A stretch of DNA of 64,000 bases. Source: Pseudomonadota bacterium. GTDB lineage: Bacteria > Desulfobacterota > Desulfobulbia > Desulfobulbales > JAHJIY01. Under the pieces are notes generated by a model, which searched no databases, was not told the DNA's origin, and saw only the letters and a program-made list of their open reading frames with translations. Every line of letters starts with the position of its first letter. Position 1 is the first letter of the stretch. Of the stretch, positions 26,151 through 44,861 are shown piece after piece. The stretch is taken from contig JAHJIY010000086.1 of assembly GCA_018823175.1 (NCBI GenBank), positions 9,625 to 73,624 on the forward strand, given 5' to 3'. The translations under genes were made by a program, and so were the position numbers.

Positions 26151-26341
26151 ACTTCTTTTGTTTTAAAAGGGCTTGCCGCGCCCGGCAGCAAATCTTTAAT
26201 TGTCTGAGCATTCGAGCGGCGGGGAAACTCCGGACCTTAGGAGTTATTAACAATCAGATCAGTGCGCGGATCGGACGGCAGGGAGATGTTTTCTGATCCC
26301 ATAAGTCGCGAGGAACGCCTGCTGATCGTGTTCAAAGAAAA

Positions 26342-28303: not shown

Positions 28304-28308
28304 TTTAT

Positions 28309-29823: not shown

Positions 29824-30050
29824 TGGTCAATGGATCTAAATGCTTTCTCCCCCTTTTAATTCATGCAACAAGATAATAAGGTCTCAGTTTTTGAAAACTT
29901 CAACCGAACTATCCAATGTTTATCTGCCTGATGGCAGTCGGCCTCTTTCTGGTGAGGGCGGTAGATTTTTGATCTCCAGCTGGATAATTAAATCGGATGT
30001 TGTTTTTGATCTGCGGCACTCATTAACGCTCACGAGTTCGGGTAATCTTC

Positions 30051-31265: not shown

Positions 31266-31648
31266 TGCATTCGGGCTTGTCTGATCGCCGGGGGTTTACC
31301 CTGTTGGAGATTCTGGTCGCCCTGGCGGTCCTTAGTCTGGTGGTGGTGGCGGTGTTGAAGAACAATAACGCCATGATCGACAACAGCATATATTTGCGCG
31401 ATAAAACCCTGGCCGGTTTTGTGGCCTCAAACAAGGCGGCTGATCTGGAGCTGGCCAATCTCTGGGTCAAGACCGGCACCGAGCAGGGGGAGGTCGTGCT
31501 GGCCGACCGGCGGTGGTTCTGGACGGTGGTCGGCAAGGAAACGCCTGATCCAGATATGCGGATCGCCGAAATCGAAGTAAGAAGCGAAAATGAAGAGGAG
31601 ACAGCCCTGGCCTCTTTGGTTATTTATCTTGGTCGTCCTCCTTTTTAA
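31262..31648 (+). CDS. gspI: Type II secretion minor pseudopilin GspI
   Basis: 128 aa. Prepilin leader plus GFTLLEILVALAVLSL. Size and position fit GspI. Overlaps the gspF stop codon. Confidence 0.8.
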   Translation: MMHSGLSDRRGFTLLEILVALAVLSLVVVAVLKNNNAMIDNSIYLRDKTLAGFVASNKAADLELANLWVKTGTEQGEVVLADRRWFWTVVGKETPDPDMRIAEIEVRSENEEETALASLVIYLGRPPF

Positions 31649-32300
31649 TGTGCAAGGTAATGGTTTGACTGATAATTATAACGGTTTGGCCGGCAAAGGT
31701 TTTACCCTGTTGGAATTACTTGTCGCCATGTCGATTTTCTCAGTAATGTCGGTTATGGCCTATAGCGGTCTGGCGACGATGATCGTAAGCCGGGAACATA
31801 TGATGGGGGAGGCGGAAAAACTTCAGGCGATCCAGCGGGTCTTTACCCTCATTTCCTATGATTTCAGGCAGGTTCTGGATCGGCCGGTCCGCGATGAGTT
31901 CGGTCAGGATTTAGGCGCCATGCTGGGCACCTTTGATCTGGAAATTGCCGCCGTCGAATTTACCCGAAGTGGCTGGCGTAATCCAACCGGCGCCAAACGC
32001 AGCAGCATGCAGAGGGTTGCTTACGAGCTTGAGAACGATAAGCTGATCAGAAAAAGCTGGCCGGTTTTGGATCGGGCCTATGATAGTAAACCATTTTCAA
32101 CCGTACTACTGTCCGGCGTCGAAAGGTTGGAGATCCGATATTTCAATGCCTATGATCAGGTGACCAACGTCTGGCCGCCGGCTAGCGGCTCGTTAGCTGG
32201 TTCCTTTGGGTCGCTTGCTTTGCCCAAGGCCGTGGAAATTGCGGTTGACCTGAAAGATTGGGGTCGGATTAATCGGCTATTTGTTCTGGTCAACGGATAA
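31590..32300 (+). CDS. gspJ: Type II secretion minor pseudopilin GspJ
   Basis: GFTLLELLVAMSIFSVMSVMAYSGL prepilin N-terminus. The true start is probably the in-frame GTG at 31650, just after the gspI stop, rather than ATG 31590. Confidence 0.8.
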   Translation: MKRRQPWPLWLFILVVLLFNVQGNGLTDNYNGLAGKGFTLLELLVAMSIFSVMSVMAYSGLATMIVSREHMMGEAEKLQAIQRVFTLISYDFRQVLDRPVRDEFGQDLGAMLGTFDLEIAAVEFTRSGWRNPTGAKRSSMQRVAYELENDKLIRKSWPVLDRAYDSKPFSTVLLSGVERLEIRYFNAYDQVTNVWPPASGSLAGSFGSLALPKAVEIAVDLKDWGRINRLFVLVNG

Positions 32301-32329
32301 TTGATTTGTCATATTTGTTGCGGAAAAAC

Positions 32330-33271
32330 ATGCTTGTTTATTTGAATAATCAAAAAGGGGTGGCGCTGGTTACCGTTTTGCTGATCGCCGGGATTGTTTC
32401 GGTAATGGCCCTCAGCATGACCTCAAGTCAGCAGATTGATATCAGGCGGACCGCCAACATTATTGAGTCGGAAAGGGCTCTCTGGCTCGTTAAAGGGGTG
32501 GAGACCTGGGGTGTGTGTCTACTGATGCGTGACAATGTGAGTGGCGGTAACGATAATCTGGGAGAAGACTGGGCCCAGGGCATGTTGCCGACCGGGATTG
32601 ACGGGGCTTTTGTCTCGGGTGAACTTGAAGATCTCCAGGGTCGGATAAATATTAATAATCTGGTGTCGGTACTCACCGTAGGCCAGGCCACCCTTAAAGG
32701 CGAGACCTGGAGCCAGCTGACCAGATTGTTTGAGAGGTGCGAGATTGATCCTGCCGCTCTTTATAAAGTGCTTGACTGGATTGATCCGGATGTCGATGCT
32801 CAGGGCTACGGTGCGGAGGATGAATATTATCTTGTTCAGGAGACCCCATACCGGGCGGCAAATCGGTTGATGGTCAGTCCCACCGAGCTCAGGGCAGTCG
32901 GGGACATTAGTGAAGAGGGTTATCAGTGTCTGGCCCCCAATATTTCGACCTTGCCCTACGATACATATATTAATGTCAATACGGTGCCGCCCGGGGTTAT
33001 TGCGGCCCTGGGTGATGACATTAGCCTGGCAGTTGCCGAGGAAGTTGTCGACGAGCGGCCGATCGACGGTTTTGCCTCTATTGCCGAGTTTCGGAATCTG
33101 CCGCAGTTCGCTGGAAAGGATATGGACATCGTGTTTCTGACCGATAGAAGTGAATATTTTCTGGCGACCTCCAGGGCCAGAGTTGGTCGGCAGGATATCG
33201 TCATGTATAGTCTGGTCGCTAAAAAATCCGATAAAGTCTCTGTTTTAAGCCGAAGTATTGGGGTATATTGA
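32330..33271 (+). CDS. gspK: Type II secretion minor pseudopilin GspK
   Basis: N-terminus QKGVALVTVLLIAGIV (GspK lacks the conserved Glu5) and a C-terminal helix-hairpin-helix-like region. The ORF track starts at TTG 32306; ATG 32330 is preferred. Confidence 0.8.
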   Translation: MLVYLNNQKGVALVTVLLIAGIVSVMALSMTSSQQIDIRRTANIIESERALWLVKGVETWGVCLLMRDNVSGGNDNLGEDWAQGMLPTGIDGAFVSGELEDLQGRININNLVSVLTVGQATLKGETWSQLTRLFERCEIDPAALYKVLDWIDPDVDAQGYGAEDEYYLVQETPYRAANRLMVSPTELRAVGDISEEGYQCLAPNISTLPYDTYINVNTVPPGVIAALGDDISLAVAEEVVDERPIDGFASIAEFRNLPQFAGKDMDIVFLTDRSEYFLATSRARVGRQDIVMYSLVAKKSDKVSVLSRSIGVY

Positions 33272-33326
33272 ACCGATATTTCAGGGCAAATCATTTTGAA
33301 AATTAGGTTATGAGCTGATTGATCAT

Positions 33327-34568
33327 ATGAATGAATTAATTATCTGCATAGGGGCGGAGGCCCCGGAAAAGGTCTGTTGGGCGGAGCGTGATGCCACAGG
33401 ATCCTTGTCCGTGGTTTGCGGCTCATTGCGTGAGGCGTCGGGCCGGATAGTGAAACGGACCGTGGTTCTGGTTCCCGGCTCTGAGGTTTTGCTTACTCGC
33501 GCCACCCTGCCGACCGGCAGCAAGAAACTGGCTTTAAAGGCTATTCCTTATGCCATTGAGGACAATCTGGCTTCCGATGTTGAAGGTCAACATTTTGCCT
33601 TTGGTCGAAAAAATTCCGACCAGACTTTAGCCGTGGCGGTGGTTGATAATCTCCGAATGGAGGCGTGGCTTTCCATGTTGCGCGAAGTAGGGATCGAGCC
33701 TGATATTATTTGTCCCGCTACCCTGGCTGTGCCGATTAATGATCAGGGGATTGCGGTGCTGATTGAAGGGGGCGATGCCTTGGTCCGGCTCGACAGTCAG
33801 CAGGGTTACGGGATTGATCAGGATAATTTGCCGATGATCCTCAATGCTGATTCTGACAAGGCGGCCGAGGGTGCGGCGCTTAAGGTCAGGATCTATAATT
33901 GTTCCGGCGAGCAACTGCCGGCCTTTGGTCCGGCTATTGAGCTTGATGAGGTGGCCGCCGGCAAGGGACGACTGGCGATGTTGTCATCGGCTGGCCAGGC
34001 CGCCTGGCATCTGGCATCCGGCTTTGATGAGAAGAAGGCGATCAATCTTCTGCAGGGTACGTACAGTCGTAATGCCGAGTGGGGAAAAGCCTGGCAGAAA
34101 TGGCAATTGCCGATCATGCTGCTCGCCGTTTTAATGGTATTGCATATCTCCAGCCAGATTTCGGATTTTTATCGATTGCGGGCCGAGAGTTTAAACTTGG
34201 ACTCCGCGATTGTCAATGTTTACAAGACAACTTTTCCCAAGGCCAAAAAAGTGGTTAAACCACGGGTCCAGATGGAACAAAAGCTTAAACTCCTCCAGGG
34301 TGGCGGTGATGCAGGCGGCTCTGGATTTCTTGAATTATTTGATAAGACCGGGCAGATTTTAATCCAAGGTAAAGGGGTTAAACTTTTGAACCTGCGTTTT
34401 CAGGAGGAAGTTATTGAGCTTGAATTTGAGACGACTGACCTGCAGGCCCTTGATGAATTAAAGGGGGCGTTAGTCAAACAGCCGGGAGTTGAGGTGGAAA
34501 TTAAAAACGCTTCAGCGGTAAATGACCATGTTCTGGCCCGGATGCGGATTAAGGCGGTGGCCCAATGA
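33327..34568 (+). CDS. gspL: Type II secretion system protein L
   Basis: 413 aa. Cytoplasmic actin-like domain, a single TM helix (WQLPIMLLAVLMVLHI) and a periplasmic domain. Position between gspK and gspM. Confidence 0.8.
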   Translation: MNELIICIGAEAPEKVCWAERDATGSLSVVCGSLREASGRIVKRTVVLVPGSEVLLTRATLPTGSKKLALKAIPYAIEDNLASDVEGQHFAFGRKNSDQTLAVAVVDNLRMEAWLSMLREVGIEPDIICPATLAVPINDQGIAVLIEGGDALVRLDSQQGYGIDQDNLPMILNADSDKAAEGAALKVRIYNCSGEQLPAFGPAIELDEVAAGKGRLAMLSSAGQAAWHLASGFDEKKAINLLQGTYSRNAEWGKAWQKWQLPIMLLAVLMVLHISSQISDFYRLRAESLNLDSAIVNVYKTTFPKAKKVVKPRVQMEQKLKLLQGGGDAGGSGFLELFDKTGQILIQGKGVKLLNLRFQEEVIELEFETTDLQALDELKGALVKQPGVEVEIKNASAVNDHVLARMRIKAVAQ

Positions 34569-35047
34569 TGGCTTTCTGGGAAAAATGGAGTAATCGTGAA
34601 CGATTGATGGTTGTTGGCTGCAGTTTATTCATCCTCCTTGCCGTGGCTTATCTGCTGGTCCTTGAACCTTTTTACAGTGGCCTTGACGAGTATCGGCGAC
34701 AGGTTCCCGGACAAAGGGCCGAACTTGCCTGGATGCAATCGGCCTCGCTTCGGATCAAGGAACTCGGTGGGCCGGCGGCGGATATCGTCGGACAGAACGC
34801 CTCTCCGCTGGCGGCGGTCGATCGGGCGGCCAGGAAAATGAAGATTGATTCTGCGATTAAACGGGTTGAACCGGGGGATAATGAGACGGTGAAGGTCTGG
34901 TTTGATGAGGTCCTTTTTGATGATCTTATTGCGTGGTGCCGGGTGTTAAGTGTGGAGTATGGCATCAAGATTGTAAGTTTTTCGGCTGATCGGCAGCAGG
35001 CGCCCGGTTATGTCAGCGCCCGGGTCGTTTTTGGTGGCCGGACCTGA
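34565..35047 (+). CDS. gspM: Type II secretion system protein M
   Basis: 160 aa. One N-terminal TM helix and a ferredoxin-like periplasmic domain. ATGA overlap with gspL. Confidence 0.8.
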   Translation: MMAFWEKWSNRERLMVVGCSLFILLAVAYLLVLEPFYSGLDEYRRQVPGQRAELAWMQSASLRIKELGGPAADIVGQNASPLAAVDRAARKMKIDSAIKRVEPGDNETVKVWFDEVLFDDLIAWCRVLSVEYGIKIVSFSADRQQAPGYVSARVVFGGRT

Positions 35048-35051
35048 TAAT

Positions 35052-35822
35052 ATGAAAAAATTCTCCAAGAGATATATTGTTTTTGGCTTTACCGCCTATC
35101 TGTTTTTCCTGGCCTTGTCTTTTCCCGCAGACCGGGCCTGGTCGATTGCCGAAAAACGGCTTGGTCCGTCGTCTGCTTTGCCGCAAGTTTCCGGAATCAG
35201 CGGGGTCTGGTGGTCTGGTCGGGTTGATGAAGTCAGGTTTAATGCGATAGAGCTGCGGAATCTGCGCTGGACATTTCGCCCATTAGCTCTGGTCCGGGGT
35301 ATGGTTAAGGCGGTGGTTGCTTTTGAACCGCCGGGCGGCAACTTTGCCGGGGTTATCGCGGTCGGACGTAAAACTATTGAACTGACTAAAGTAAAAGCCA
35401 AAGTTCCTTTCGATCAGCTTAACGATATCTTGACCGTTTTTGGGGTGCAGGTAGGCGGGTTTCTGGTTGCTGATCTGCAAAAGATAATCCTGGTAGACAA
35501 ATCGCTTCTTCTGGCAGACGGTTTGCTGGTCTGGCAGGATGCGTTGGTGGAACGGCCGCAAAAACTAATTTTAGGTGAGTTGAAGGCCGCTCTGTCAACG
35601 GAAAAGGAAGGGGTGCGAGCCGTAATTTCGGACAGCGGCGGGCCTTTGGTGGCGGAGGGCATTTCCACCCTGGATTCTGCCGGCCTATATAGTCTGGCGG
35701 TTAAACTCGCCTCACGGGACTCGGCGCAGCCGGATTTGGCCGATGCCATAAAGTTGCTGGGTACACCTGGTGGTGACGGCAAGGTCTCTTTATCTTATAA
35801 CGGCAAACTGCCGGAATTTTGA
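35052..35822 (+). CDS. gspN: Type II secretion system protein N
   Basis: About 256 aa. N-terminal TM helix and GspN-like length and position. ATG 35052 lies 5 nt after the gspM stop; the ORF track starts at 35010. Confidence 0.7.
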   Translation: MKKFSKRYIVFGFTAYLFFLALSFPADRAWSIAEKRLGPSSALPQVSGISGVWWSGRVDEVRFNAIELRNLRWTFRPLALVRGMVKAVVAFEPPGGNFAGVIAVGRKTIELTKVKAKVPFDQLNDILTVFGVQVGGFLVADLQKIILVDKSLLLADGLLVWQDALVERPQKLILGELKAALSTEKEGVRAVISDSGGPLVAEGISTLDSAGLYSLAVKLASRDSAQPDLADAIKLLGTPGGDGKVSLSYNGKLPEF

Positions 35823-35963
35823 TCGCCATGTCCTAAGGGGTGAGCAAACCAAGATCCGGTAAAAAGCATGGGTGATTTTCATAGTCAAAACCTTGGGCCT
35901 TTTTTGCGGCTCGTGTTTGTAATGATTTTTTTTGTATCGTATCAGTTAATAAGGAAAACAATA

Positions 35964-36428
35964 ATGGACAGAAAGATAATAACGGCAGGAACGGTTCGTG
36001 TTCTTGGTCAAAAAGGTTTTACCCTGATTGAGATTATGGTGGTGGTCGTAATTTTAAGTATCCTGGCTGCGATCATTGTGCCGCGCATCATGGATCGGCC
36101 GGATCAGGCCCGGGTGGTCAAGGCCCGGCAGGACATCAGGGCCCTGGAAAGCGCTCTGAAACTTTACAAGCTTGATAATTATGTATATCCCACCACCGAC
36201 CAGGGGTTGGAGGCCCTTTCGGTCAAACCAACCGATGAGCCTGAACCGAAAAAATGGAAAGATGGCGGCTATATTGATCGTCTGCCGAAAGATCCATGGG
36301 GTGGCGATTATCAATATCTGAGTCCGGGTGAGAACGGACCTATTGATATTTATTCACTCGGTGGCGATAATCAGCCCGGCGGTGAGGGGATTAATGCCGA
36401 TATCGGTAACTGGGACCTTGAAGAATAA
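35964..36428 (+). CDS. gspG: Type II secretion major pseudopilin GspG
   Basis: [55 protein letters not shown]... is a classic GspG sequence. ATG 35964 follows an AAGGAAAA SD; the ORF track starts at 35868. Confidence 0.9.
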
Positions 36429-36960
36429 GAAAGCAGGCCTTACTCAACAGGGCTTTACCCTGCTTGAATTAATTGTTGTTGTGTTGCTTATCGGGATCAT
36501 TACCAGCTTTGTCACTTTGTCCATCGGGTCGCGTAGTGATAAAATCGATACGGAAGCCCGCCGCCTGGTCGCCTTGCTCAACCTGGCCGGGGATGAGGCA
36601 GTGATGAGCGCCCGGGAATATGCCGCTGATTTTACGCCGACCACTTATCGGTTTATGGAATACGGTCGTGATGGCTGGCAGGACCTTGGAGAAAACGGTG
36701 ATGATGTCCTCCGCTCCCGCTCTCTGGCCGAAGGCATAAGTTTTAAGCTGGAGATCGCCGGAGAACCGGTGGATTTTGAGCGCTCTGCCCTGGTCGAGGA
36801 AAGAAAAGATCCGGTCGGTATCTTCCTTTTTTCCAGCGGCGAAGTCTCCCCTTTTGAAATTACCATCACCGATTCCTATTCCGGAGTGAGCCGAGTCGTT
36901 TCCAATCTGATCGATGGGCGGGCCAGGCTCGCTGATCCCGGTTTGTCCGTCAAAGATTAA
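36394..36960 (+). CDS. gspH: Type II secretion minor pseudopilin GspH
   Basis: [22 protein letters not shown] prepilin N-terminus, about 185 aa. Start at ATG 36394 or TTG 36418; the ORF track starts at 36328 inside gspG. Confidence 0.75.
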
Positions 36961-37324: not shown

Positions 37325-39445
37325 ATGCAAAAGTTCAAGATTGGATTGCTGATTGTCCTTATGGCAATGGGGTCTGGCCTGTATGGCTGTAGCGGTGATG
37401 ACGGGACTAACGGCGTCAATGGCGTTGATGGTGTCGATGGTTCCGATGGGACGGCAACACACACAGAGGAAAGCTGTACGGTATGTCATGGCGATAATCG
37501 GCTTTTGGATACAGCTGCCCTGCATACCGCAAACGCTACGGCCCTGGCAAACGATGATCTGGTTGGCACGGTCACGGGCATTACCGACGATGGTACTGGC
37601 CTTCTGACAATCGCCTTCTCCGTGGTCGACCAAGACGGTGCAGCAGTTACTGGCATTGCTCAGGGTCGCGCCTATCTGGCCGACATCGTCCCGGCCGGCG
37701 TTGGTACCAACACTTTTGGCTCCTCCTATTTGGAGCGTTGGGCCTACGAAACTAGTACAGGCACCTGGACAGATTTAGGTGCTGGAAACTACACCTATAA
37801 GTTTACTACCGCTGCCGTCCTTGGGGCCGCCGGTTTTGATGCCACGGCCGTAGATTTCGATACGACTCACACTCAGCGTCTGGTCTTGCGTCTTGGCGCT
37901 GATGACCATAATAACGGTCTCATCGTTCAAGACTTCAACCTGACCGGTGCCGGTGCCCAGACTCTGCTTGCTCCTCAACGCGTACTCGCCCCCACCGACG
38001 GCTGCAAGAATTGTCATAGCAACCAGATGGTCGGTGCCGCTCATGCCGATAGCTACCTCGACGTTCGCGCCTGTAACGTTTGTCATAGCCCCATCGGTCA
38101 TTACGCTGCGTCTATGACCGAAGATGATGCCTACATCGGCCGCTTTATTCATGGTATCCATGCTGCGAAGTCTTCGACTGAGTTGCCTGGTTTTGCTGAA
38201 TTTGAAGAGGGTGGCGGCCATGCCCGTTTCCCTGATGCCGCTGGCGTAGACCAAGGTTATGCGGCTGTTACCTATCCCAAAGCGATCAATGACTGTGCTG
38301 CTTGCCATACCGGCAGCGAGAGCATGACTGACGGTTGGAAGAGCAACCCGACGATGGAGATTTGTACCTCATGCCATACCTCCAGCACCGTTAATATCGA
38401 CGGCACCTTTACCCACACCGCAGAGAACACTTCTGCCCCGAGCTCCACCAAAACCAACGCTCAATGTGCCGGTTGTCATGGTGCAACGGATATAGTGGGC
38501 TACCATGCGGTGACCACGCTCAAAGGTGATTCGGCAGTATCTATCACCCCGGTCTATACGGCGACCATTGCCATGACCCCCCCCGCCAACGGTACTCACT
38601 ATGTAGCAGGTGAAGCACCAGTGGTCACGGTTACTACAACTGCATCCGGTGCCTACGACAGTCTTGACAACACTACCGATTATACTGCGGCCACTCTCTA
38701 TGTTTATGGCCCAAGGGCTGAAGCGGTACCGGTCTTGACTCCTGGTTCAACTACTGATCCTGATTATATTTCCATGATTAGTGATGACACTGATCCTGAT
38801 TATGATCCGACCGCACTTCCGACTCAGGGTCATAACATGCGCGCCAGTGATGCTGCAAGCGACGCCAATGTCCTGACCGATGCCACCGGCTTTAAGTATC
38901 AACTTCAGGCAATTCCTGCTGATCTTGCGCCGGGCACCTACATGGCTCAGGTTGCAATTGGCCATACCAGTAGCAGGACCACCGGCAGCCGTAACTACAA
39001 GATTGACGGTTGGCAGATGGTAAGCTTCCAGGTAGGAACGGCTACGACAGAGCAGAGAATTGGTGGCGATAAATGCAGCAATTGCCACGATCTGACCGAC
39101 TGGACCAGCACCTATCATCGTGCTTACTTTGGTACCGACGGTTGTAATGCCTGTCATGACAAATCGGGTAACCACGCTAATCCGATCGCCAACCGGGTCC
39201 ATGCTATCCATGCCTCTAGCGAAGCTGGCGATGCGCTTGGCGCTGATTGGGCGGAAATCACCTTCCCACAAAGCGATGTTGCTGAAGGTGAGCCTGAAAG
39301 CACGCTCTGTCAGGGTTGTCATACTACGGACAATACCAGCTACCTGACTAACCCAGGCGGCTTCCCTTGTCTTGGTTGTCATGGTGATACGCCAAATGCC
39401 GTGGATCATATGATCCAAAATGGTGCTCCGCTTGCAGCACACTAA
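37325..39445 (+). CDS. Decahaem c-type cytochrome lipoprotein, MtrC/OmcA-like
   Basis: 706 aa. Lipobox LYGC (Cys22) followed by the Gly-X-Y linker GDDGTNGVNGVDGVDGSDG. Ten CXXCH motifs have their first Cys at residues 51, 227, 250, 324, 347, 381, 584, 607, 662 and 682. Two haem-free beta-rich segments (GNYTYKF, GTYMAQV) resemble the MtrC/OmcA domain plan. Strong SD AAGGGAGAAGGG. Confidence 0.85.
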   Translation: MQKFKIGLLIVLMAMGSGLYGCSGDDGTNGVNGVDGVDGSDGTATHTEESCTVCHGDNRLLDTAALHTANATALANDDLVGTVTGITDDGTGLLTIAFSVVDQDGAAVTGIAQGRAYLADIVPAGVGTNTFGSSYLERWAYETSTGTWTDLGAGNYTYKFTTAAVLGAAGFDATAVDFDTTHTQRLVLRLGADDHNNGLIVQDFNLTGAGAQTLLAPQRVLAPTDGCKNCHSNQMVGAAHADSYLDVRACNVCHSPIGHYAASMTEDDAYIGRFIHGIHAAKSSTELPGFAEFEEGGGHARFPDAAGVDQGYAAVTYPKAINDCAACHTGSESMTDGWKSNPTMEICTSCHTSSTVNIDGTFTHTAENTSAPSSTKTNAQCAGCHGATDIVGYHAVTTLKGDSAVSITPVYTATIAMTPPANGTHYVAGEAPVVTVTTTASGAYDSLDNTTDYTAATLYVYGPRAEAVPVLTPGSTTDPDYISMISDDTDPDYDPTALPTQGHNMRASDAASDANVLTDATGFKYQLQAIPADLAPGTYMAQVAIGHTSSRTTGSRNYKIDGWQMVSFQVGTATTEQRIGGDKCSNCHDLTDWTSTYHRAYFGTDGCNACHDKSGNHANPIANRVHAIHASSEAGDALGADWAEITFPQSDVAEGEPESTLCQGCHTTDNTSYLTNPGGFPCLGCHGDTPNAVDHMIQNGAPLAAH

Positions 39446-39488
39446 TTGAAAAGGATTAACTCCCATTTCAAGTAAAGTCTCAGTAAAA

Positions 39489-39698: not shown

Positions 39699-41900
39699 AT
39701 GCCTAAAAAACAATCTCATTCCGATTTTCCCCCTGGATCAGAATTAAAGTCAAAGGTTTCTCAACGCTTACCCCTCTGGCAGGCCCTTGTCCTGCCAATA
39801 GTCGCTATCCTGGTCTTTTTTCTGCTCTTGGAAGGCGGACTCGCCCTTTTCGGTCTGCAACCGACCCTGCATAATAAGGACCCCTTTGTCGGCTTTGCTG
39901 CCAATGTCCCACTCTTTACCGCCTCACCTGGAGCAAACGGCAAACAACTGCTGACTACCCCAGCCAATAAAAAGGACTATTTCAACCGGCAGAGTTTTAC
40001 CAAAGAAAAAGATCCGAACACCTATCGTATATTTTCTCTCGGTGGCTCGACCACCTATGGCCGGCCTTACGCTGACAGTACTTCTTTTAGCGGCTGGCTG
40101 CGGCAACTGCTGCCCGTAGCCGACAGCAGTAAAAAATGGGAGGTGATTAACGCCGGTGGCATCAGTTATGCCAGCTATCGGGTTGCCCAGTTGATGGAAG
40201 AGTTGGTTCAGTATCAGCCGGATCTGTTCATCATCTATACCGGTCATAACGAATTCCTTGAAGAACGCACTTACCGTAAACTAAAAGAGATCCCGCCGCT
40301 GATCCGCTCAACTGCTTCGTTGCTGGCCAAAACCCGTACCTGGACAGCCCTGACCGGCGTATTAGAAAAGGTGGACCTCGCGCCGGTTGCGGAAAAGGAA
40401 ACCCGTTTTAAGCTTGGTACGGAAGTTGATGCTATCCTCGATCGTACTACAGGTCCGAAAAGTTACTCGCGTAACGATACCTTGAAAAACAACATCTTAA
40501 ACCATTTTCGGATCAGCCTGGAACAGATGGTTACCCTTGCCCAATCGGTGGGTGCTCAGGTCATTTTTGTCACGCCAGCCGCAAATCTGAAGGAATGTTC
40601 ACCCTTTAAAAGTGAGCACACCCCTGGCATCAATGCCGCATCACTGCGACGCTCCGAAGATTTGCTAACCATGAGCAAGCCAATGGTCTGGGAAAAAAAC
40701 TGGCCCATGGTTCTGCATTTCCTGGATGAGGCGGCGGCCATTGATCCGCGCTTTGCCGATCTACAGTATCATCGCGGTCAGGCTTTACTGGCGTTGGGCC
40801 GCAATAAAGAAGCCAAAACAGCCCTGCGCCTGGCGAGCGACGAAGATGTCTGCCCGCTTCGAGCTTTAACCCCGATGGCTCAAATCGTCACCGAGGTCGC
40901 CAAGCAGCACGGAGCTATGCTGGTCGATTTTATTGATCTCCTGGAGCAGAGGATGGTAAACAACAAAGAGTATCCCATCCTTGGTGCGGAGTTTTTTCTC
41001 GATCATGTGCACCCTACCATTGAAGGCCACAAACTATTGGCGGTCGAACTGCTTGAAACCATGTCTGCCCGAGGCATAGTGCATCCCGGTGCTGACTGGG
41101 GTACAGCAGCCATTTCGGCAGTCGCTGCAAAAATTGAAGCGGGTGTCGATCAATGGGTTCAGGGACATGCTTTGGCTAACCTGGCTCGGGTGCTATTGTG
41201 GGCCGGAAAAGAGCAAGATTCAGCCCGTCTGGCCAGGCAGGCATTGGAGCTCGCTGGTGATAATCAGCAAGTGGCGATCAACGCGACCACTACTCTGGCA
41301 ACCATCTACATCATGCAGAAAAATCCAAAGCGGGCCGTGAAGTTACTTTACGCTGCCCTTGAAAAAGCACCAAGCGCAATCGAGCTACGCCTCAAACTTG
41401 GCCAGATCATGCTGGGTCAGAAATCCCCAAATTTGGAAGGGGCAGCCGCAAATCTGCTATTGATCACCCAGCTGATGCCCTACTATGATGTTGGTCACAC
41501 CATATTCGGCATTGCCATGGCAGATCGAGGTCGTCCGCAAATTGCCTACCCGAGCCTGATGCAGGCGCTGCAGATTAACCCGAATAACAAGGACGCCAGC
41601 TTTAAATTGGCCCAAATCCGGCCCTTGCTCAAGGGGCTGGAATTCAGTCGGAAGTTCCTTCTTGTTCAGCTTGATTATTATCCTTCCACCGCCCCACGCA
41701 AAATGGTTCAGGGACGGCGTAATACCAACGGTCAATTCATCCAGGATGGTATTGAAGTGGAATTTCATGAGAATGGTCGGCTTAAAAGCTTCCTCGATAT
41801 TGAGCAAGGAAAACCAAATGGGCTCGAAATGACTTGGGATTCGGAGGGCAAGGTTTTGTCACGTAAGATTTATAAGCAGGGGATTCTTGTCGATGGTTAG
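39699..41900 (+). CDS. Membrane-anchored SGNH/GDSL-hydrolase-like, TPR and MORN(YwqK-like) fusion protein
   Basis: 733 aa. N-terminal TM helix. SGNH-like blocks are FSLGGSTTYG, NAGGISYAS, GHNEF and DHVHPT. The central region is TPR-like helical repeats. The C-terminal region has MORN/YwqK-like repeats (NGQFIQDGIEVEFHENGRLKS...NGLEMTWDSEGKV). Confidence 0.6.
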   Translation: MPKKQSHSDFPPGSELKSKVSQRLPLWQALVLPIVAILVFFLLLEGGLALFGLQPTLHNKDPFVGFAANVPLFTASPGANGKQLLTTPANKKDYFNRQSFTKEKDPNTYRIFSLGGSTTYGRPYADSTSFSGWLRQLLPVADSSKKWEVINAGGISYASYRVAQLMEELVQYQPDLFIIYTGHNEFLEERTYRKLKEIPPLIRSTASLLAKTRTWTALTGVLEKVDLAPVAEKETRFKLGTEVDAILDRTTGPKSYSRNDTLKNNILNHFRISLEQMVTLAQSVGAQVIFVTPAANLKECSPFKSEHTPGINAASLRRSEDLLTMSKPMVWEKNWPMVLHFLDEAAAIDPRFADLQYHRGQALLALGRNKEAKTALRLASDEDVCPLRALTPMAQIVTEVAKQHGAMLVDFIDLLEQRMVNNKEYPILGAEFFLDHVHPTIEGHKLLAVELLETMSARGIVHPGADWGTAAISAVAAKIEAGVDQWVQGHALANLARVLLWAGKEQDSARLARQALELAGDNQQVAINATTTLATIYIMQKNPKRAVKLLYAALEKAPSAIELRLKLGQIMLGQKSPNLEGAAANLLLITQLMPYYDVGHTIFGIAMADRGRPQIAYPSLMQALQINPNNKDASFKLAQIRPLLKGLEFSRKFLLVQLDYYPSTAPRKMVQGRRNTNGQFIQDGIEVEFHENGRLKSFLDIEQGKPNGLEMTWDSEGKVLSRKIYKQGILVDG

Positions 41901-42245: not shown

Positions 42246-43535
42246 ATGATAATGACTAAATGGTCGGGCCGTTTTTTGGGGTTGGGGATAATGTCGGTAC
42301 TATGTTTGCCGACAGCTGCTTTTGCGGCGGAGATAAGTGTTAAATCCGACACGATCTTCCGGGGCTTTGAACGGGATACCGCGACAGAGTCTGAAGCCAT
42401 GGTGCTTCCTGCCTATGAGTATCTGCAGATTGACGTTGACACTCCAGGCGAGCCGGGACTGGCTCTTCATCTTTATGGCTGGGGGCGCGGAGATTTAGCG
42501 GATAAAGATTATTACGACGACACCACGGACGGGGAAGTCCTCTATGGTTATTTGGAATATAGCAAAAAAGAGGCGCGCTTCAACGCTAAACTTGGTCGGC
42601 AGCACGTGTTTGAAGGGGTGGCCAATGAAACCTTGGATGGCTTGCGGATCAGCTCTGATCTGGGGCGGTATTTTTCCGGATCGCTCTATGGCGGACAACA
42701 GGTCGCGATGAGCGATGAACAGGGGAGGAGTGGCGACAGTATTTATGGTGGCCGTTTGTCCCATCACCTGATCGGCCGTTATGCTCTGGGGGTCTCTTAC
42801 AAGAAAATTACTAATGACAGCGAAGATGCCGAAGAGATGACCGGTGTTGATCTGGCGGCTTATCTGCCTTACGATGTAAACCTGTTTGGGAATTCCACCT
42901 ACAATTTTGAAAGCGAAGACTGGGCTGAACATTCCTATGAAATGCGCGCCACCTTCGGCCAGTTGGCGGTACGTCCATATTTCCAGAAATTTAAATATGA
43001 TGATTATTTCGCTACTGGCGCCAACAGCGCCGGTCCTTTCCGTTTTCTTGCCGACAGCGGTGAGGAGTTGACGGTAGGTGGTGGTGACTTCACCCTGTCG
43101 CTTGATTCCACCTGGGTTCTGGTTGGCAAGTTTAAACATTATACTTATGAAGTGCTTGATGACGCCTCTCCCTATTATGGTGCGCAGGCCACCTGGTCGG
43201 GTGAAAAACACTGCCAGATCGGTGGCGAGGTCGGTTATATGAATGGCGAGGTGGCGCAGAACGACTATTACCTGGTTAGACTTTTCACCTATTGGGACCA
43301 GTTGCCGGCAATCTTGCCGATTGGGTTTGTCAGTGCCGATGTAGTCTATGTTGGATATGACAAGCCGATTTACGAAGAAGACAACTCGCTTTTTGTCTCT
43401 CTTGGCGCCGGCAAAAAGTTTATGGAGGATGCGCTTGAGTTGAAACTTTCCGGTGACTACAGCAGCGATCCTTACTTTGACCAAGACGTGCGGGGGATGT
43501 TGACGGCCAGTTACCGCTTTGGCCATTCACTGTAA
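42246..43535 (+). CDS. Predicted outer-membrane beta-barrel (porin-like) protein of a porin-cytochrome module
   Basis: 429 aa. Sec signal peptide (...LPTAAFA/AE), a pervasive alternating hydrophobic/aromatic pattern, Y/G-rich turns and a near-C-terminal OMP-like ...LTASYRF. No Cys-haem motifs. Immediately followed by two cytochrome genes. Confidence 0.6.
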   Translation: MIMTKWSGRFLGLGIMSVLCLPTAAFAAEISVKSDTIFRGFERDTATESEAMVLPAYEYLQIDVDTPGEPGLALHLYGWGRGDLADKDYYDDTTDGEVLYGYLEYSKKEARFNAKLGRQHVFEGVANETLDGLRISSDLGRYFSGSLYGGQQVAMSDEQGRSGDSIYGGRLSHHLIGRYALGVSYKKITNDSEDAEEMTGVDLAAYLPYDVNLFGNSTYNFESEDWAEHSYEMRATFGQLAVRPYFQKFKYDDYFATGANSAGPFRFLADSGEELTVGGGDFTLSLDSTWVLVGKFKHYTYEVLDDASPYYGAQATWSGEKHCQIGGEVGYMNGEVAQNDYYLVRLFTYWDQLPAILPIGFVSADVVYVGYDKPIYEEDNSLFVSLGAGKKFMEDALELKLSGDYSSDPYFDQDVRGMLTASYRFGHSL

Positions 43536-43564
43536 TGGATTTAATTACGATCAGGAGTCAAGTG

Positions 43565-44035
43565 ATGCGAACGAAATTTTGGATAGGAATTGGATTGTCT
43601 CTTTTGCTGCTGGCCTTGGGTGCTTGCGCAGCATTGGATAGCGGGTTAGATCTGCCGGCACGTCATCAAACGGCGGAGGATTTGGGGGAGGCCCCGAAGA
43701 TGTGTACCAATTGTCATGAGGCGCGCGGGGAGAAGCTGGCGTTTGGCAACTTCAACCATACGGCGACCTGGATGCAGACCCATCGGCAGCAGGCATATCA
43801 ACAGGAGGCTGTGTGTTCGATGTGTCATCAGCCCAGTTTCTGTAGCGACTGTCACGCGTCACGGGTGGAGCTTAAACCATCCTTGAAGAATCAGGCGGAA
43901 ACATCCCGGCAAATGCCGCATCGAGGAGATTATCTGACCAGGCATCGGATTGATGGCCGGGTTGATCCGACCTCTTGCTTCCGCTGTCACGGTAATCCGA
44001 AATCGGCTAAAACTTGCGTCCGTTGTCACGGTTAA
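43565..44035 (+). CDS. Pentahaem c-type cytochrome (small, periplasmic or lipoprotein)
   Basis: Five CXXCH motifs (CTNCH, CSMCH, CSDCH, CFRCH, CVRCH) in about 156 aa. Signal peptide with a possible lipobox ALGAC. ATG 43565 has an AGGAG SD 7 nt upstream; the ORF track starts at 43535. Confidence 0.85.
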   Translation: MRTKFWIGIGLSLLLLALGACAALDSGLDLPARHQTAEDLGEAPKMCTNCHEARGEKLAFGNFNHTATWMQTHRQQAYQQEAVCSMCHQPSFCSDCHASRVELKPSLKNQAETSRQMPHRGDYLTRHRIDGRVDPTSCFRCHGNPKSAKTCVRCHG

Positions 44036-44111
44036 GAGATAAAGTTGAGTTGAGCAGCCTTTCTGCTCAAATGAAACTTATGCCCTTGCGGTATAAGAAG
44101 GAGAAAACTAG

Positions 44112-44861
44112 ATGCTACGCTCATTTGCCTTTTTGATGTTGTTTCTTATCCCCTTCGCCCTGACCGGTTGTGGTGAAGGAAATTCTAATGCGCCTTTGGA
44201 TACAGAGCCCCATCCAGAGTCATGGATTTCGACTCATTCTGCGGCCGCCATCGCTGATGCTGGATACACGGGATGTATCAGCTGCCACGGTTCAGATCTG
44301 ACTGGTTATGGTGAGGTGCCCAGTTGCTATTCCTGTCACGTCTTTAACACCAGCCCGCCTTTAACGATTCATCCGGCGGCCTGGACCAATATCTATGTTA
44401 ATCATCGTGGCTCAGCAGATATCACCATTTGTGAAAATTGTCATGGTGTGCTTTTGCAGGGTAGTGAGTCTGCACCCAGTTGTTATTCAAGCATTTTCGA
44501 TGGTTTAAGTTGTCATGCAGCCGGCCCAGGACAGGCGCCTCATCCCGTCGATACTTCTTATTTGTCTGGTACTGTTCATGGTCCAGTTGCCAAATCGGAT
44601 TTGAGAGTATGCCAGGCCTGTCATGGCCAGGCGGGTGGACCGGGAGATAATCCGCGCTTTAATGTCGGGATCAGTAGTGCAGGTGGTAATGGTTGTGAGT
44701 CATGCCATGGTACCAACTATGCCCATCCGGCCAGCTGGATGAGTGGTCATCGTTCAGCCGGGAATATCTCGAATGTCTGCACCCTCTGTCATGGGGTCGC
44801 TCTTGATGGTAGTGGCGGAGTAGGTATCAGTTGCGGAACATGCCATGGAATCCCAGGGTAA
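44112..44861 (+). CDS. Multihaem c-type cytochrome lipoprotein (7 CXXCH plus 1 CX9CH)
   Basis: 249 aa. Lipobox LTGC (Cys20). Seven CXXCH motifs (CISCH, CYSCH, CENCH, CQACH, CESCH, CTLCH, CGTCH) plus CYSSIFDGLSCH. Four tandem two-haem modules. AAGGAG SD. Confidence 0.85.
   Translation: MLRSFAFLMLFLIPFALTGCGEGNSNAPLDTEPHPESWISTHSAAAIADAGYTGCISCHGSDLTGYGEVPSCYSCHVFNTSPPLTIHPAAWTNIYVNHRGSADITICENCHGVLLQGSESAPSCYSSIFDGLSCHAAGPGQAPHPVDTSYLSGTVHGPVAKSDLRVCQACHGQAGGPGDNPRFNVGISSAGGNGCESCHGTNYAHPASWMSGHRSAGNISNVCTLCHGVALDGSGGVGISCGTCHGIPG

What the first reader, a model, noticed from the sequence alone, without database searches (positions are those of the whole stretch)
37325..39445. MtrC/OmcA-like decahaem lipoprotein with a 1+5+4 haem layout and no adjacent MtrA/MtrB
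**Seen in sequence:**
- A lipobox Cys22 is followed by six Gly-X-Y triplets (GDDGTNGVNGVDGVDGSDG, nt ~37394-37456).
- One CXXCH sits at residue 51, ahead of the first beta-rich domain.
- Five CXXCH motifs lie at residues 227-385, then comes a second beta-rich domain, then only four CXXCH motifs at residues 584-686.

**Established knowledge (from memory of the structures):** MtrC/OmcA are arranged beta / 5 haems / beta / 5 haems, and carry a similar Gly/Asp/Asn-rich linker after the lipidated Cys.

**Inference:** One haem appears relocated to the N-terminus. The gene stands alone, without a neighbouring mtrA/mtrB pair, directly after the T2SS.
Basis: partly seen in the sequence, partly recalled or inferred. 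Interest (0 to 1): 0.6.

Follow-up and report, generated by a model that had tools for sequence, protein, structure and literature searches.

The report
Circularly permuted MtrC-type surface cytochrome
This gene encodes a ten-haem, lipid-anchored cytochrome of the MtrC/OmcA family in which the peptide that normally binds the last haem has moved to the front of the protein, and it sits between a type II secretion system and a non-Mtr outer-membrane porin/cytochrome module that probably forms its electron conduit.

Summary
ORF 37325-39445 (+) encodes a 706-aa lipoprotein with a Gly-X-Y linker and ten CXXCH motifs laid out 1+5+4.

It is a divergent OmcA/MtrC-family cytochrome by Pfam domains, by fold and by NCBIfam similarity, although the NCBIfam score is below the curated cut-off.

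The odd N-terminal haem motif is the sequence homologue of the C-terminal haem-10 peptide of MtrF, UndA and the 5+5 relatives, so this is a circular permutation.
- An HMM built only from N-terminal peptides hits motif 10 in 54 of 61 5+5 relatives.
- In MtrF it scores 25 bits on the last motif and at most 7.4 bits on the other nine.
- No homologue carries both copies.
- The layout is common: 81 of 120 close homologues, and half of the nearest full-length 50%-identity clusters.

"Stands alone" is misleading. There is no MtrA or MtrB, but a conserved module follows the gene:
- an SGNH/TPR protein;
- a roughly 22-strand barrel with no Pfam family (OMP429);
- a pentahaem lipoprotein;
- a further multihaem lipoprotein.

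This order recurs in many genomes, often beside a T2SS, including cultured Geopsychrobacter electrodiphilus.

Recent papers describe the lineage, but I found no mention of the permutation or of these linkages. The three-dimensional position of the relocated haem could not be measured here.

The parts
25230..36960 (+). Type II secretion system: gspC, D, E, F, I, J, K, L, M, N, G, H.
   Evidence: Pfam and NCBIfam hits for every gene, for example Secretin 1.6e-48, T2SSE 1.3e-152, GspC_delta 8.5e-36 and GspH 1.2e-26. A T2SS lies beside homologous cytochrome or barrel clusters in L002, L006, L012, L018, L064, L074/L075, L077 and L078.
37325..39445 (+). Gene for the 706-aa OmcA/MtrC-family decahaem lipoprotein with the permuted 1+5+4 layout.
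37325..37390 (+). Signal peptide and lipobox (L19-Y-G-C22).
   Evidence: Read directly from the sequence. G21 and C22 are conserved in at least 90% of 93 aligned homologues.
37394..37450 (+). Gly-X-Y (collagen-like) tether, residues 24-42.
   Evidence: Weak Pfam Collagen hit, E = 0.038. AF2 pLDDT is below 50 for residues 22-43. The median uninterrupted run is 7 triplets in both layout classes. MtrF and S. baltica MtrC carry the same kind of linker.
37454..37558 (+). Relocated haem-10 peptide, residues 44-78: CTVCH at 51-55 and the trailing His67.
   Evidence: It is homologous to the last haem motif of 5+5 relatives, of MtrF (residues 613-639) and of UndA (residues 821-843). Block-mean pLDDT is 69-79 for residues 51-80, against 44-46 for the tether blocks, residues 21-40.
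37562..37969 (+). Domain I, a beta-barrel, residues about 80-215.
   Evidence: PF22111 matches residues 89-198. AF2 predicts strands from residue 80 to 215.
37982..38518 (+). Domain II, with five CXXCH motifs (227, 250, 324, 347, 381), equivalent to haems 1-5 of MtrC.
   Evidence: PF22113 matches residues 224-394. The motif-by-motif score matrix shows a diagonal shifted by one.
38519..39049 (+). Domain III, a beta-barrel, residues about 399-575, with no cysteines.
   Evidence: AF2 strands. No CX8-15C disulfide motif is present.
39050..39445 (+). Domain IV, with only four CXXCH motifs (584, 607, 662, 682), equivalent to haems 6-9. The protein ends just after the conserved DHMxQNG.
   Evidence: This is the point where MtrF and the 5+5 relatives continue into the haem-10 peptide.
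39699..41900 (+). Membrane-anchored SGNH/GDSL hydrolase plus TPR protein, 733 aa. Role unknown.
   Evidence: Pfam Lipase_GDSL_2 5e-10 and TPR families. A homologue of 59-67% identity lies 220-541 bp from the end of the cytochrome gene in L001, L002, L005, L009, L012, L015, L018, L021 and L041; it is on the opposite strand in L015 and L021.
42246..43535 (+). OMP429, a predicted outer-membrane barrel of about 22 strands with no Pfam family. Candidate porin of the conduit.
   Evidence: No Pfam hit. 597 homologues; none of the 120 listed has a Pfam domain, and every name given is 'hypothetical'. AF2 pLDDT 83.7: a signal helix followed by about 22 long strands. Foldseek matches only 18-24-strand outer-membrane barrels such as Occ porins, AlgE, and the FimD and PapC ushers, E about 1e-8.
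43535..44035 (+). cyt5, a small pentahaem lipoprotein. The probable true start is Met at 43565, giving 156 aa; lipobox LGAC.
   Evidence: 507 homologues, always with five haems and a lipobox in the loci examined. It is 73% identical to the Geopsychrobacter protein P0277.
44112..44861 (+). cyt7, a 249-aa lipoprotein (lipobox LTGC) with seven CXXCH motifs. Homologues at the same position have 4-21 CXXCH motifs; nearly all have 7-21.

Best explanation
The gene encodes a lipid-anchored decahaem c-type cytochrome of the OmcA/MtrC family, probably exposed at the cell surface.

**What is shown**
- It keeps the family's parts: two beta-barrel domains, two haem domains, ten CXXCH motifs and ten conserved candidate distal histidines.
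- The roughly 35-residue peptide that binds haem 10, which also carries one histidine for a neighbouring haem, has been cut from the C-terminus. It now sits between the lipid-anchor tether and domain I.

**What is inferred**
- The relocated peptide still docks into the haem-10 pocket of domain IV, so the usual ten-haem 'staggered cross' wire is preserved.
- The adjacent type II secretion system puts the protein on the cell surface, as happens for Shewanella MtrC, OmcA and MtrF.
- There it caps a non-Mtr conduit encoded just downstream. This consists of the OMP429 barrel, a pentahaem lipoprotein and a second multihaem lipoprotein, an architecture like Geobacter ExtBCD or ExtEFG.
- Electrons would pass between the periplasm and extracellular minerals, electrodes or partner cells. 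The direction of flow is not known.
For: **Family**
- PF22113 scores 100.8 bits (cut-off 30) and PF22111 34.3 bits (cut-off 27.7).
- TIGR03507 scores 1.4e-50.
- A profile of 93 homologues hits MtrF at 6.8e-67 and MtrC at 4.6e-47 in the PDB.
- The AF2 model has pLDDT 84.4 and pTM 0.81. Its only significant Foldseek matches are MtrC, OmcA, UndA and MtrF, E 2e-19 to 9e-12.

**Permutation**
- Of 120 homologues, 81 are 1+5+4, 25 are 5+5 and none is 1+5+5.
- Of the nearest 50%-identity clusters of at least 600 aa, 37 are 1+5+4 and 37 are 5+5.
- In the motif-by-motif BLOSUM matrix, motif k of 1+5+4 scores highest against motif k-1 of 5+5 for six of the nine motifs 2-10. Motif 1 matches haem 10 at +12.3, against -3.5 to -17 for the other nine.
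- An HMM built from N-terminal peptides alone finds motif 10 as its best hit in 54 of 61 5+5 proteins, with i-E mostly 1e-5 to 1e-10.
- In the PDB that profile hits MtrF 613-639 (25.3 bits; other MtrF motifs at most 7.4) and UndA 821-843 (21.8 bits).
- Moving the peptide back to the C-terminus in silico raises the TIGR03507 score by 9-14 bits in three proteins. The alignment then reaches the end of the model, position 672, for the window protein and for P0007.
- Ten proximal histidines plus ten invariant or nearly invariant non-motif histidines are present: 67, 240, 276, 279, 364, 394, 598, 626, 629 and 695.

**Conduit**
- The order cytochrome, SGNH/TPR, OMP429, cyt5, multihaem lipoprotein, or a close variant, occurs in L002, L005, L006, L012, L021, L031, L041, L045, L074 and others.
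- 13 of 27 1+5+4 loci with at least 8 kb of flank have an OMP429 homologue within 10 kb.
- In the reverse direction, 3 of 4 OMP429 homologues picked for contig length have an MtrC-like neighbour.
- OMP429 is predicted to be a large outer-membrane barrel.

**T2SS**
- A T2SS is adjacent in at least nine independent OMP429-type loci, in three different arrangements.
Against: - No coordinates of the model were available and no haems could be docked, so the position of the N-terminal haem in three dimensions is inferred, not measured.
- A covariation test of the N-terminal peptide against the four domains was only weakly in favour of domain IV: 20 of the top 60 pairs, against about 14 expected.
- The TIGR03507 score of this protein (172.5 bits, or 181.5 after re-permutation) stays below the curated cut-off of 209.3.
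- About half of the 1+5+4 loci show no OMP429 within 10 kb.
- Shaw et al. 2025 report mtrAB elsewhere in Desulfobacterota genomes, so another partner is possible.
- No periplasmic ExtA- or ExtG-like cytochrome is encoded in the window.
- Homology of OMP429 and cyt5 to G. sulfurreducens ExtB/E and ExtC/F was not tested directly.
- There are no expression, localisation or activity data.
Confidence: 0.6

Rival explanations
1. The N-terminal haem occupies a new site near domain I or the membrane anchor rather than the old haem-10 pocket. Domain IV would then be a true tetrahaem domain and the haem wire would have a different geometry, for example an entry haem close to the lipid anchor.
For: The model coordinates could not be inspected. 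pLDDT of residues 51-80 is only 69-79. The covariation test was inconclusive. Some 5+5 forms nested within the clade have a short C-terminal peptide without the trailing histidine, which suggests this corner of the protein tolerates change.
Against: The peptide is specifically homologous to haem-10 peptides, including the His 12-13 residues after the motif. The N-terminal and C-terminal copies are strictly exclusive in about 500 sequences. All four non-motif histidines of domain IV stay invariant or nearly so in both layouts, which would leave an orphan ligand if the pocket were empty. The protein ends exactly where the haem-10 peptide would begin.
Confidence: 0.15
2. The cytochrome is a free-standing, OmcA-like accessory, or it works with an MtrAB pair encoded elsewhere in the genome. 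Its position beside the OMP429 module and the T2SS would reflect clustering of envelope genes rather than a physical complex.
For: 14 of 27 1+5+4 loci have no OMP429 homologue within 10 kb. Soares et al. [quoted passage not shown] Shaw et al. 2025 found mtrAB in many Desulfobacterota, with mtrC in a different operon. Shewanella OmcA and UndA are not encoded with their own porin.
Against: Co-location is reciprocal and recurs in different gene orders, orientations and lineages. OMP429 and cyt5 are unannotated, with no Pfam family reaching its gathering score, so earlier surveys could not have scored them as porin-cytochrome genes. No MtrA-like protein is present in 64 kb.
Confidence: 0.2
3. The protein does not carry out extracellular electron transfer. 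It would be an outer-membrane lipoprotein facing the periplasm that reduces or oxidises a soluble substrate.
For: No experimental data exist. The conserved CX8-15C flavin-switch disulfide of the Shewanella proteins is absent. The direction of electron flow is unknown.
Against: The fold and haem set are those of surface cytochromes. T2SS adjacency is repeated. Carriers include the electrode-respiring Geopsychrobacter electrodiphilus and Citrifermentans bremense.
Confidence: 0.05

Closest known systems
Shewanella outer-membrane decahaem cytochromes MtrC, MtrF and OmcA, and the 11-haem UndA (PDB 4LM8, 6R2Q/6QYC, 3PMQ, 4LMH, 3UCP)
   Same: - Lipoprotein signal followed by a Gly-rich tether.
- Two beta-barrel and two multihaem domains, with ten CXXCH motifs.
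- Profile hits of 1e-31 to 7e-67 and Foldseek E of 1e-11 to 2e-19.
- The last-haem peptide is recognisably the same sequence element.
- A genetic link to a T2SS.
   Different: - The haem-10 peptide is at the N-terminus instead of the C-terminus.
- Only 15-18% identity over the structural alignment; a single-sequence phmmer search finds nothing in the PDB.
- No CX8-15C disulfide in domain III.
- No mtrA or mtrB neighbour; instead a barrel of about 22 strands with no family, plus small lipoprotein cytochromes.
The 'Desulfobacterota MtrC' lineage (Shaw et al. 2025, PMC12133095) and the MtrC/F/OmcA-like structural cluster of 57 Desulfuromonadia proteins (Soares et al. 2024, PMC11492766)
   Same: Very probably the same protein lineage. 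Homologues here include Geopsychrobacter, Citrifermentans, Desulfuromonas and Desulfurivibrionaceae proteins. Both papers note that the gene is usually not next to mtrAB.
   Different: Neither paper mentions the relocated haem motif, a T2SS link, or the OMP429/cyt5 neighbours; the text searches found nothing. Soares et al. describe the cluster as not associated with porin-cytochrome complexes. Shaw et al. leave the partner open.
Geobacter sulfurreducens Ext conduits: extABCD (periplasmic 12-haem, barrel, 5-haem lipoprotein, 12-haem lipoprotein) and extEFG (barrel, 5-haem lipoprotein, 12-haem cytochrome) (Jimenez Otero et al. 2018, PMC6148476)
   Same: - The same gene order: barrel, about 160-aa pentahaem lipoprotein, larger multihaem cytochrome.
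- That paper lists two Geopsychrobacter proteins as ExtC/ExtF homologues. [quoted passage not shown]
- Gene counting in L001/L074 fits cyt5 being D888DRAFT_0812. This is an inference.
   Different: - Direct sequence comparison with GSU2643/2644 and GSU2725/2726 could not be made.
- No ExtA- or ExtG-type periplasmic dodecahaem is present in the window.
- An MtrC-family cap and an SGNH/TPR protein are added.
Circular permutation of proteins in general (permutation by duplication, or by fission and fusion)
   Same: A terminal segment appears at the opposite end in one subfamily. Its sequence is conserved and the two positions are mutually exclusive. Tandem paralogues, which could fuel permutation by duplication, are common (L005, L014, L017, L028, L029, L041, L078).
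   Different: Only a single cofactor-binding peptide of about 35 residues is displaced. The new N-terminus had to be placed behind an existing signal peptide and tether. The mechanism and the number of events are unresolved; a rough NJ tree nests 5+5 forms three times inside the 1+5+4 clade.

Membership tests
OmcA/MtrC family decahaem cytochromes | Whole-protein score above the curated cut-off of NCBIfam TIGR03507 (209.3 bits). | tested here: not met
   172.5 bits natively and 181.5 bits after in-silico re-permutation. A 1+5+4 clade member, P0087, passes at 280 bits, so the permuted clade is not excluded as such.
OmcA/MtrC family decahaem cytochromes | Pfam domains MtrC/MtrF II/IV (PF22113) and MtrC/MtrF N-terminal domain (PF22111) above their gathering scores. 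| tested here: met
   100.8 bits against 30, and 34.3 bits against 27.7.
OmcA/MtrC family decahaem cytochromes | Ten CXXCH motifs, with bis-His ligation possible for all ten. | tested here: met
   Ten CXXCH motifs. Ten further histidines are invariant or at least 90% conserved, or sit in the conserved N-terminal peptide. Actual ligation was not observed.
OmcA/MtrC family decahaem cytochromes | Linear order barrel, 5 haems, barrel, 5 haems. | tested here: not met
   The order is 1 haem, barrel, 5 haems, barrel, 4 haems. The displaced motif is the homologue of haem 10, so this is a circular permutation of the family's order.
OmcA/MtrC family decahaem cytochromes | Four-domain fold similar to the solved structures. 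| tested here: met
   For the AF2 model, the only Foldseek PDB matches with E <= 0.001 are MtrC, OmcA, UndA and MtrF, with TM 0.41-0.53 for the full-length chains. The apo model limits the TM-score.
OmcA/MtrC family decahaem cytochromes | Lipoprotein signal peptide followed by a Gly/Asp/Asn-rich tether. | tested here: met
   LYGC22 followed by six to seven GXY triplets. The same feature is aligned in MtrF and S. baltica MtrC.
OmcA/MtrC family decahaem cytochromes | Conserved CX8-15C disulfide in domain III, the flavin switch of the Shewanella clades (PMC4486940). | tested here: not met
   There is no non-haem cysteine after the lipobox. 93 of 106 1+5+4 proteins have no cysteine in domain III.
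Mtr conduit (MtrCAB) | Adjacent mtrA (about 330-aa decahaem) and mtrB (about 700-aa, 26-strand barrel). | tested here: not met
   Only three ORFs in 64 kb contain CXXCH, and none is MtrA-like. Gammaproteobacterial 5+5 relatives do sit in mtrCAB clusters (L036, L053).
Mtr conduit (MtrCAB) | [quoted passage not shown] | not testable with these tools
   Only genetic linkage is seen. A gsp cluster ends 365 bp upstream, and T2SS adjacency recurs in at least nine related loci.
Geobacter Ext-type porin-cytochrome conduit (ExtBCD / ExtEFG) | Gene order: outer-membrane barrel, small pentahaem lipoprotein, larger multihaem cytochrome. | tested here: met
   42246-43535 is the barrel (AF2 and Foldseek). 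43535-44035 is a five-haem lipoprotein. 44112-44861 is a seven-haem lipoprotein.
Geobacter Ext-type porin-cytochrome conduit (ExtBCD / ExtEFG) | Sequence homology to G. sulfurreducens ExtB/ExtE and ExtC/ExtF. | not tested
   The G. sulfurreducens sequences could not be obtained; the top 120 hits are all at least 50% identical and contain none. Indirect evidence: the Geopsychrobacter orthologue P0277 (73% identical) probably equals D888DRAFT_0812, which is listed as 53% identical to ExtC and 43% to ExtF.
Geobacter Ext-type porin-cytochrome conduit (ExtBCD / ExtEFG) | Periplasmic dodecahaem partner (ExtA or ExtG) in the cluster. | tested here: not met
   There is no further CXXCH-containing ORF in the window. 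The third cytochrome here is a lipoprotein with seven haems.
Circularly permuted variant of a protein family | The N-terminal segment of one subfamily is homologous to the C-terminal segment of the other, and never both are present. | tested here: met
Circularly permuted variant of a protein family | The displaced segment occupies the same place in the three-dimensional structure. | not testable with these tools
   The model coordinates are not exposed and haems cannot be docked. Indirect support only: the histidine count, the position of the chain end, and pLDDT of 69-79 for the peptide against 44-46 for the tether.

The most novel reading that the evidence does not exclude
The permuted MtrC-type cytochromes, the unannotated OMP429 barrel, the ExtC-like pentahaem lipoprotein and a dedicated T2SS together form a distinct, widespread hybrid class of outer-membrane electron conduit: an Mtr-type cap on an Ext-type pore. 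Because the permutation ties the haem-10 end of the wire directly to the lipid anchor, the cap may sit on the membrane in a different orientation from Shewanella MtrC. In that case haem 10 rather than haem 5 would face the pore. This would answer the open question of what the Desulfobacterota MtrC proteins connect to.
Probability: 0.25. Interest if true: 0.75.

Novelty: new variant of a known kind. Interest (0 to 1): 0.6.

Why it matters
- **Model system.** MtrC-family cytochromes are the best-understood biological 'wires' for electron transfer to minerals and electrodes.
- **Natural experiment.** A large natural subfamily binds the terminal haem through a peptide moved to the other end of the chain. 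This shows how modular the haem-binding peptides are, which is useful for engineering multihaem wires. It also explains why curated family models under-score these proteins, so that they are annotated as 'hypothetical'.
- **Testable partner.** The conserved neighbours give a concrete answer to a question left open in 2024-2025 papers: what the Desulfobacterota MtrC proteins plug into. The candidates are a barrel with no Pfam family, an ExtC-like pentahaem lipoprotein and a T2SS.
- **Cultured carrier.** Geopsychrobacter electrodiphilus carries the whole set, so the model can be tested genetically.

Tried and rejected
- **Single-sequence phmmer against the PDB:** no hits at E <= 0.01. A profile of homologues was needed.
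- **Measuring where the N-terminal haem sits in the AF2 model:** the tool returns no coordinates and /data holds no model file. Not possible.
- **MI-APC covariation between the N-terminal peptide and the four domains,** on 92 non-redundant sequences: only a weak excess of domain IV partners. Treated as inconclusive.
- **In-silico re-permutation:** it raises the TIGR03507 score by 9-14 bits but does not lift this protein over the cut-off. The low score is therefore mostly general divergence, not the permutation.
- **Third homology search, with cyt5, to reach G. sulfurreducens ExtC/ExtF:** the 120 listed hits were all close relatives, so the Ext link rests on a paper's supplementary table and on gene counting.
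- **Fold search of OMP429 against afdb50:** the library was not available.
- **Promoter and terminator scan of 36800-45300:** counts were no different from shuffled sequence, so nothing can be said about operon structure.
- **NJ tree to count permutation events:** 5+5 forms nest three times inside the 1+5+4 clade. The tree is distance-based and carries no support values, so the number and direction of events is left open.
- **Assembly or frameshift artefact as the cause of the N-terminal motif:** rejected. The layout is shared by more than 100 independent sequences, including isolate genomes.


Full report
**1. The observation**

- ORF 37325-39445 (+) encodes 706 aa and sits behind a good ribosome-binding site. 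NCBI calls the identical protein, as 'hypothetical protein KKB30_09595', in a proteobacterial MAG.
- So are the ten CXXCH motifs, at residues 51 | 227, 250, 324, 347, 381 | 584, 607, 662, 682.
- Only three open frames in all six frames of the 64-kb window contain any CXXCH, so this is not chance.
- A complete gspCDEFIJKLMNGH cluster ends 365 bp upstream.
- The rest of the window is housekeeping: mfd, bamA, lolC/E, lysS, tig, clpX, lon, aconitase, glyS.

**2. The family**

- Pfam finds the MtrC/MtrF haem domain (PF22113, 8e-29) and the MtrC N-terminal barrel (PF22111, 2.5e-8), both above their gathering scores.
[quoted passage not shown] At 172.5 bits it stays below the curated 209.3, which explains the 'hypothetical' annotation.
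- A single-sequence search of the PDB finds nothing. A profile of 93 homologues hits MtrF (6.8e-67), MtrC of S. baltica (4.6e-47), UndA and MtrC of S. oneidensis.
- An AlphaFold2 model built on that alignment has pLDDT 84.4 and pTM 0.81. Its only significant Foldseek matches in the PDB are MtrC, OmcA, UndA and MtrF, E 2e-19 to 9e-12.
- The protein is therefore a divergent member of this family, about 15-18% identical to the crystallised proteins.
- It lacks the CX8-15C disulfide of domain III that is conserved in all Shewanella clades and controls flavin binding (PMC4486940). It has no cysteine beyond the lipobox and the haem motifs, and 93 of 106 proteins with this layout have none in domain III.

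**3. The 1+5+4 layout is a circular permutation of the haem-10 peptide**

*Distribution*
- Among the 120 best homologues, 81 are 1+5+4, 25 are 5+5 and none is 1+5+5. The remainder are fragments or carry variant motifs.
- In a library clustered at 50% identity, 359 clusters match at E <= 1e-3. Among the top-150 hits of at least 600 aa, 37 are 1+5+4 and 37 are 5+5, again never both.

*Sequence identity of the moved peptide*
- The consensus of the N-terminal peptide is T-x-E-S-C-x-V-C-H-G-x-G-x-x-A-D-I-A-x-x-H-P.
- The C-terminal haem-10 peptide of MtrF reads TETCAFCHGQGTVADVLKVHP. The 5+5 relatives read QCxVCHGEGRxADLxxxH.
- In a motif-by-motif score matrix, motif k of the 1+5+4 proteins scores highest against motif k-1 of the 5+5 proteins for six of the nine motifs 2-10. 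Motif 1 matches haem 10 at +12.3, against -3.5 to -17 for the other nine.
- An HMM built only from the 38-residue N-terminal peptides finds its best hit at motif 10 in 54 of 61 full-length 5+5 proteins, with i-E mostly 1e-5 to 1e-10.
- The same kind of profile against the PDB hits MtrF residues 613-639 (25.3 bits; the other nine MtrF motifs score at most 7.4) and the last motif of UndA (21.8 bits). The DnaJ zinc-finger hits are a CxxCxGxG coincidence.
- Moving the peptide back to the C-terminus in silico raises the TIGR03507 score by 9, 14 and 12 bits in three proteins. The alignment then reaches the last model position for the window protein and for P0007.

*Where the chain was cut*
- The protein ends right after the conserved DHMxQNG. 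That is where MtrF and the 5+5 forms continue into the haem-10 peptide.

*Ligands*
- The count adds up: ten CXXCH histidines plus ten conserved further histidines, namely 67, 240, 276, 279, 364, 394, 598, 626, 629 and 695.

*Inference about the three-dimensional site*
- From established knowledge of the pseudo-two-fold arrangement of domains I+II and III+IV in MtrF and MtrC, the end of the haem-10 peptide should lie near the start of domain I. This mirrors the way the haem-5 peptide leads into domain III, and would make such a permutation sterically easy.
- The second-best similarity of the N-terminal peptide is indeed to haem 5.
- After both motifs the model shows a helix and then the first barrel strand.
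- That the relocated haem fills the old pocket remains an inference.

**4. The gene is not alone**

*The downstream module*
- 39699-41900: a membrane-anchored SGNH/GDSL hydrolase with TPR repeats.
- 42246-43535: OMP429, a 429-aa protein with no Pfam family. It has 597 homologues; none of the 120 listed has a Pfam domain, and every name given is 'hypothetical'. AlphaFold2 (pLDDT 83.7) predicts a signal peptide and about 22 long strands. Its fold matches only large outer-membrane barrels.
- 43535-44035: a five-haem lipoprotein, cyt5, of about 156 aa.
- 44112-44861: a seven-haem lipoprotein, cyt7.

*Recurrence*
- The same set, or close variants, lies next to homologous cytochromes in a JGI metagenome contig (L002), Geopsychrobacter electrodiphilus (L001/L074), Citrifermentans bremense (L004), and many Desulfuromonadales, Desulfobulbales and other MAGs.
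- Of 27 loci with a 1+5+4 gene and at least 8 kb of flank, 13 hold an OMP429 homologue within 10 kb and 9 hold the SGNH/TPR gene, which lies 220-541 bp from the end of the cytochrome gene.
- In reverse, of four OMP429 homologues chosen only for contig length, three have an MtrC-like neighbour and two a T2SS.
- In most shared loci the barrel and cyt5 are much better conserved than the surface cytochrome: typically 45-79% identity in the closest clusters, and 84-89% for cyt5 in L030 and L037, against 32-49%. This is the pattern Jimenez Otero et al. described for Geobacter conduits.
- Both layouts occur with this module; L006 and L079 are 5+5.
- The gammaproteobacterial 5+5 relatives sit in classical mtrCAB clusters (L036, L053).

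**5. Relation to Ext conduits**

- The order barrel, pentahaem lipoprotein, larger multihaem cytochrome is that of G. sulfurreducens extBCD and extEFG (PMC6148476).
- That paper's Table S2 lists two Geopsychrobacter proteins, D888DRAFT_0812 and _0827, as 53-60% identical to ExtC and 43-49% to ExtF.
- The Geopsychrobacter cyt5, P0277, is 73% identical to the window's cyt5. By gene counting it fits _0812. This is an inference.
- The legend of their Fig. [quoted passage not shown]
- I could not compare directly with the G. sulfurreducens sequences.

**6. The T2SS link**

- A gsp cluster lies beside the cytochrome or barrel genes in the window, L002, L006, L012, L018, L064, L074/L075, L077 and L078. 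It appears upstream on the same strand, upstream and divergent, or downstream.
- It also lies beside 5+5 genes in L042 and L053.
- By my estimate, one gsp cluster of about 12 kb in a 3-5 Mb genome would fall inside a 20-kb locus in under 1% of cases by chance.
[quoted passage not shown] Export by the neighbouring T2SS is therefore the most economical reading, but it is untested.

**7. What is known already**

- Soares et al. 2024 noted a structural cluster of 57 MtrC/F/OmcA-like proteins in Desulfuromonadia. [quoted passage not shown]
- Shaw et al. 2025 described a major Desulfobacterota MtrC lineage, with mtrC often away from mtrAB. They wrote that it is not known whether these MtrC proteins associate with MtrAB.
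- Full-text searches for permutation, N-terminal haem or type II secretion in these papers, and for MtrC or decahaem together with permutation in the whole library, found nothing relevant.
- The protein lineage is therefore known. The permutation, the OMP429/cyt5 partner and the T2SS link appear to be new observations, within the limits of the searchable library.

**8. Verdict**

- This is a real feature, correctly observed. It is a new variant of a known kind.
- Firmly shown: family membership at the domain and fold level; the sequence-level circular permutation and its wide conservation; and the conserved neighbourhood.
- Inferred: that the relocated haem fills the haem-10 pocket; that the T2SS exports the protein; and that the downstream barrel and lipoprotein cytochromes are its conduit.

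Noticed in passing
window 39699-41900: A 733-aa protein with an N-terminal membrane anchor, an SGNH/GDSL hydrolase domain and TPR repeats lies next to the cytochrome gene. It does the same in at least nine other loci, at 59-67% identity (on the opposite strand in L015 and L021), which is better conserved than the cytochrome itself. In Geopsychrobacter it is followed by a DUF5989 protein and a carbamoyltransferase. Its role is unknown; surface polysaccharide or lipoprotein modification is one possibility.
   Followed up: partly
window 44112-44861: Besides its seven CXXCH motifs, the cyt7 lipoprotein contains CYSSIFDGLSCH, a possible CX9CH site. It follows 'APS' just as the earlier 'VPSCYSCH' motif does, so an eighth, non-canonical haem site is possible. 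Homologues at this position range from 203 to 882 aa and carry 4-21 CXXCH motifs.
   Followed up: no
P0008, P0018, P0075; L005 10001-11860; L006 9878-12115: Some 5+5 proteins that nest among the 1+5+4 proteins in a rough tree have a very short C-terminal haem-10 peptide that ends 9-13 residues after CXXCH and lacks the trailing histidine. P0008 and P0018 also carry an extra N-terminal domain (PF23657). This suggests repeated switching of the peptide between the two ends.
   Followed up: partly
L005, L014, L017, L028, L029, L041, L074, L078: Tandem or nearby paralogous MtrC-like genes are common. Some pairs combine a 1+5+4 gene with a 5+5 gene (L028, L029). This is raw material for permutation by duplication and fusion.
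   Followed up: no
window 37394-37450 and homologues: The tether after the lipidated Cys is a collagen-like Gly-X-Y run. The median is 7 uninterrupted triplets in both layout classes, and the maximum is 22. Many runs are Pro-rich, for example GPAGPAGPEGP. Whether such runs form triple helices, and so trimeric stalks, is unknown.
   Followed up: partly
L053 12080-21039; L036 4065-12160: In a Chromatiaceae MAG, a classical mtrC-mtrA-mtrB cluster is followed directly by gspC-gspD. The T2SS link is therefore not limited to the permuted clade. In the Thiodiazotropha locus L036, a second 5+5 paralogue follows mtrCAB, in an OmcA-like position.
   Followed up: no
window 45855-50354 (-) and 22968-23720 (+): A polyamine-type gene set flanks the region: an AdoMet decarboxylase-like protein, a GNAT acetyltransferase, an ATP-grasp ligase, an Orn/DAP/Arg decarboxylase, and a spermidine-synthase-like protein upstream of the T2SS. 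No link to the cytochrome is apparent.
   Followed up: no
L077 9001-12402: One OMP429 homologue sits next to a T2SS without any MtrC-like gene within 9 kb. In addition, its cyt5 position holds a 256-aa protein with only three CXXCH motifs. The barrel-T2SS link may therefore be independent of the decahaem cap.
   Followed up: no
window 37100-37135: The AT-rich intergenic region upstream of the gene holds an A9 ... T11 tract (gggcaaaaaaaaactgttttttttttt). The consensus scans gave no promoter or terminator signal above shuffled sequence.
   Followed up: no
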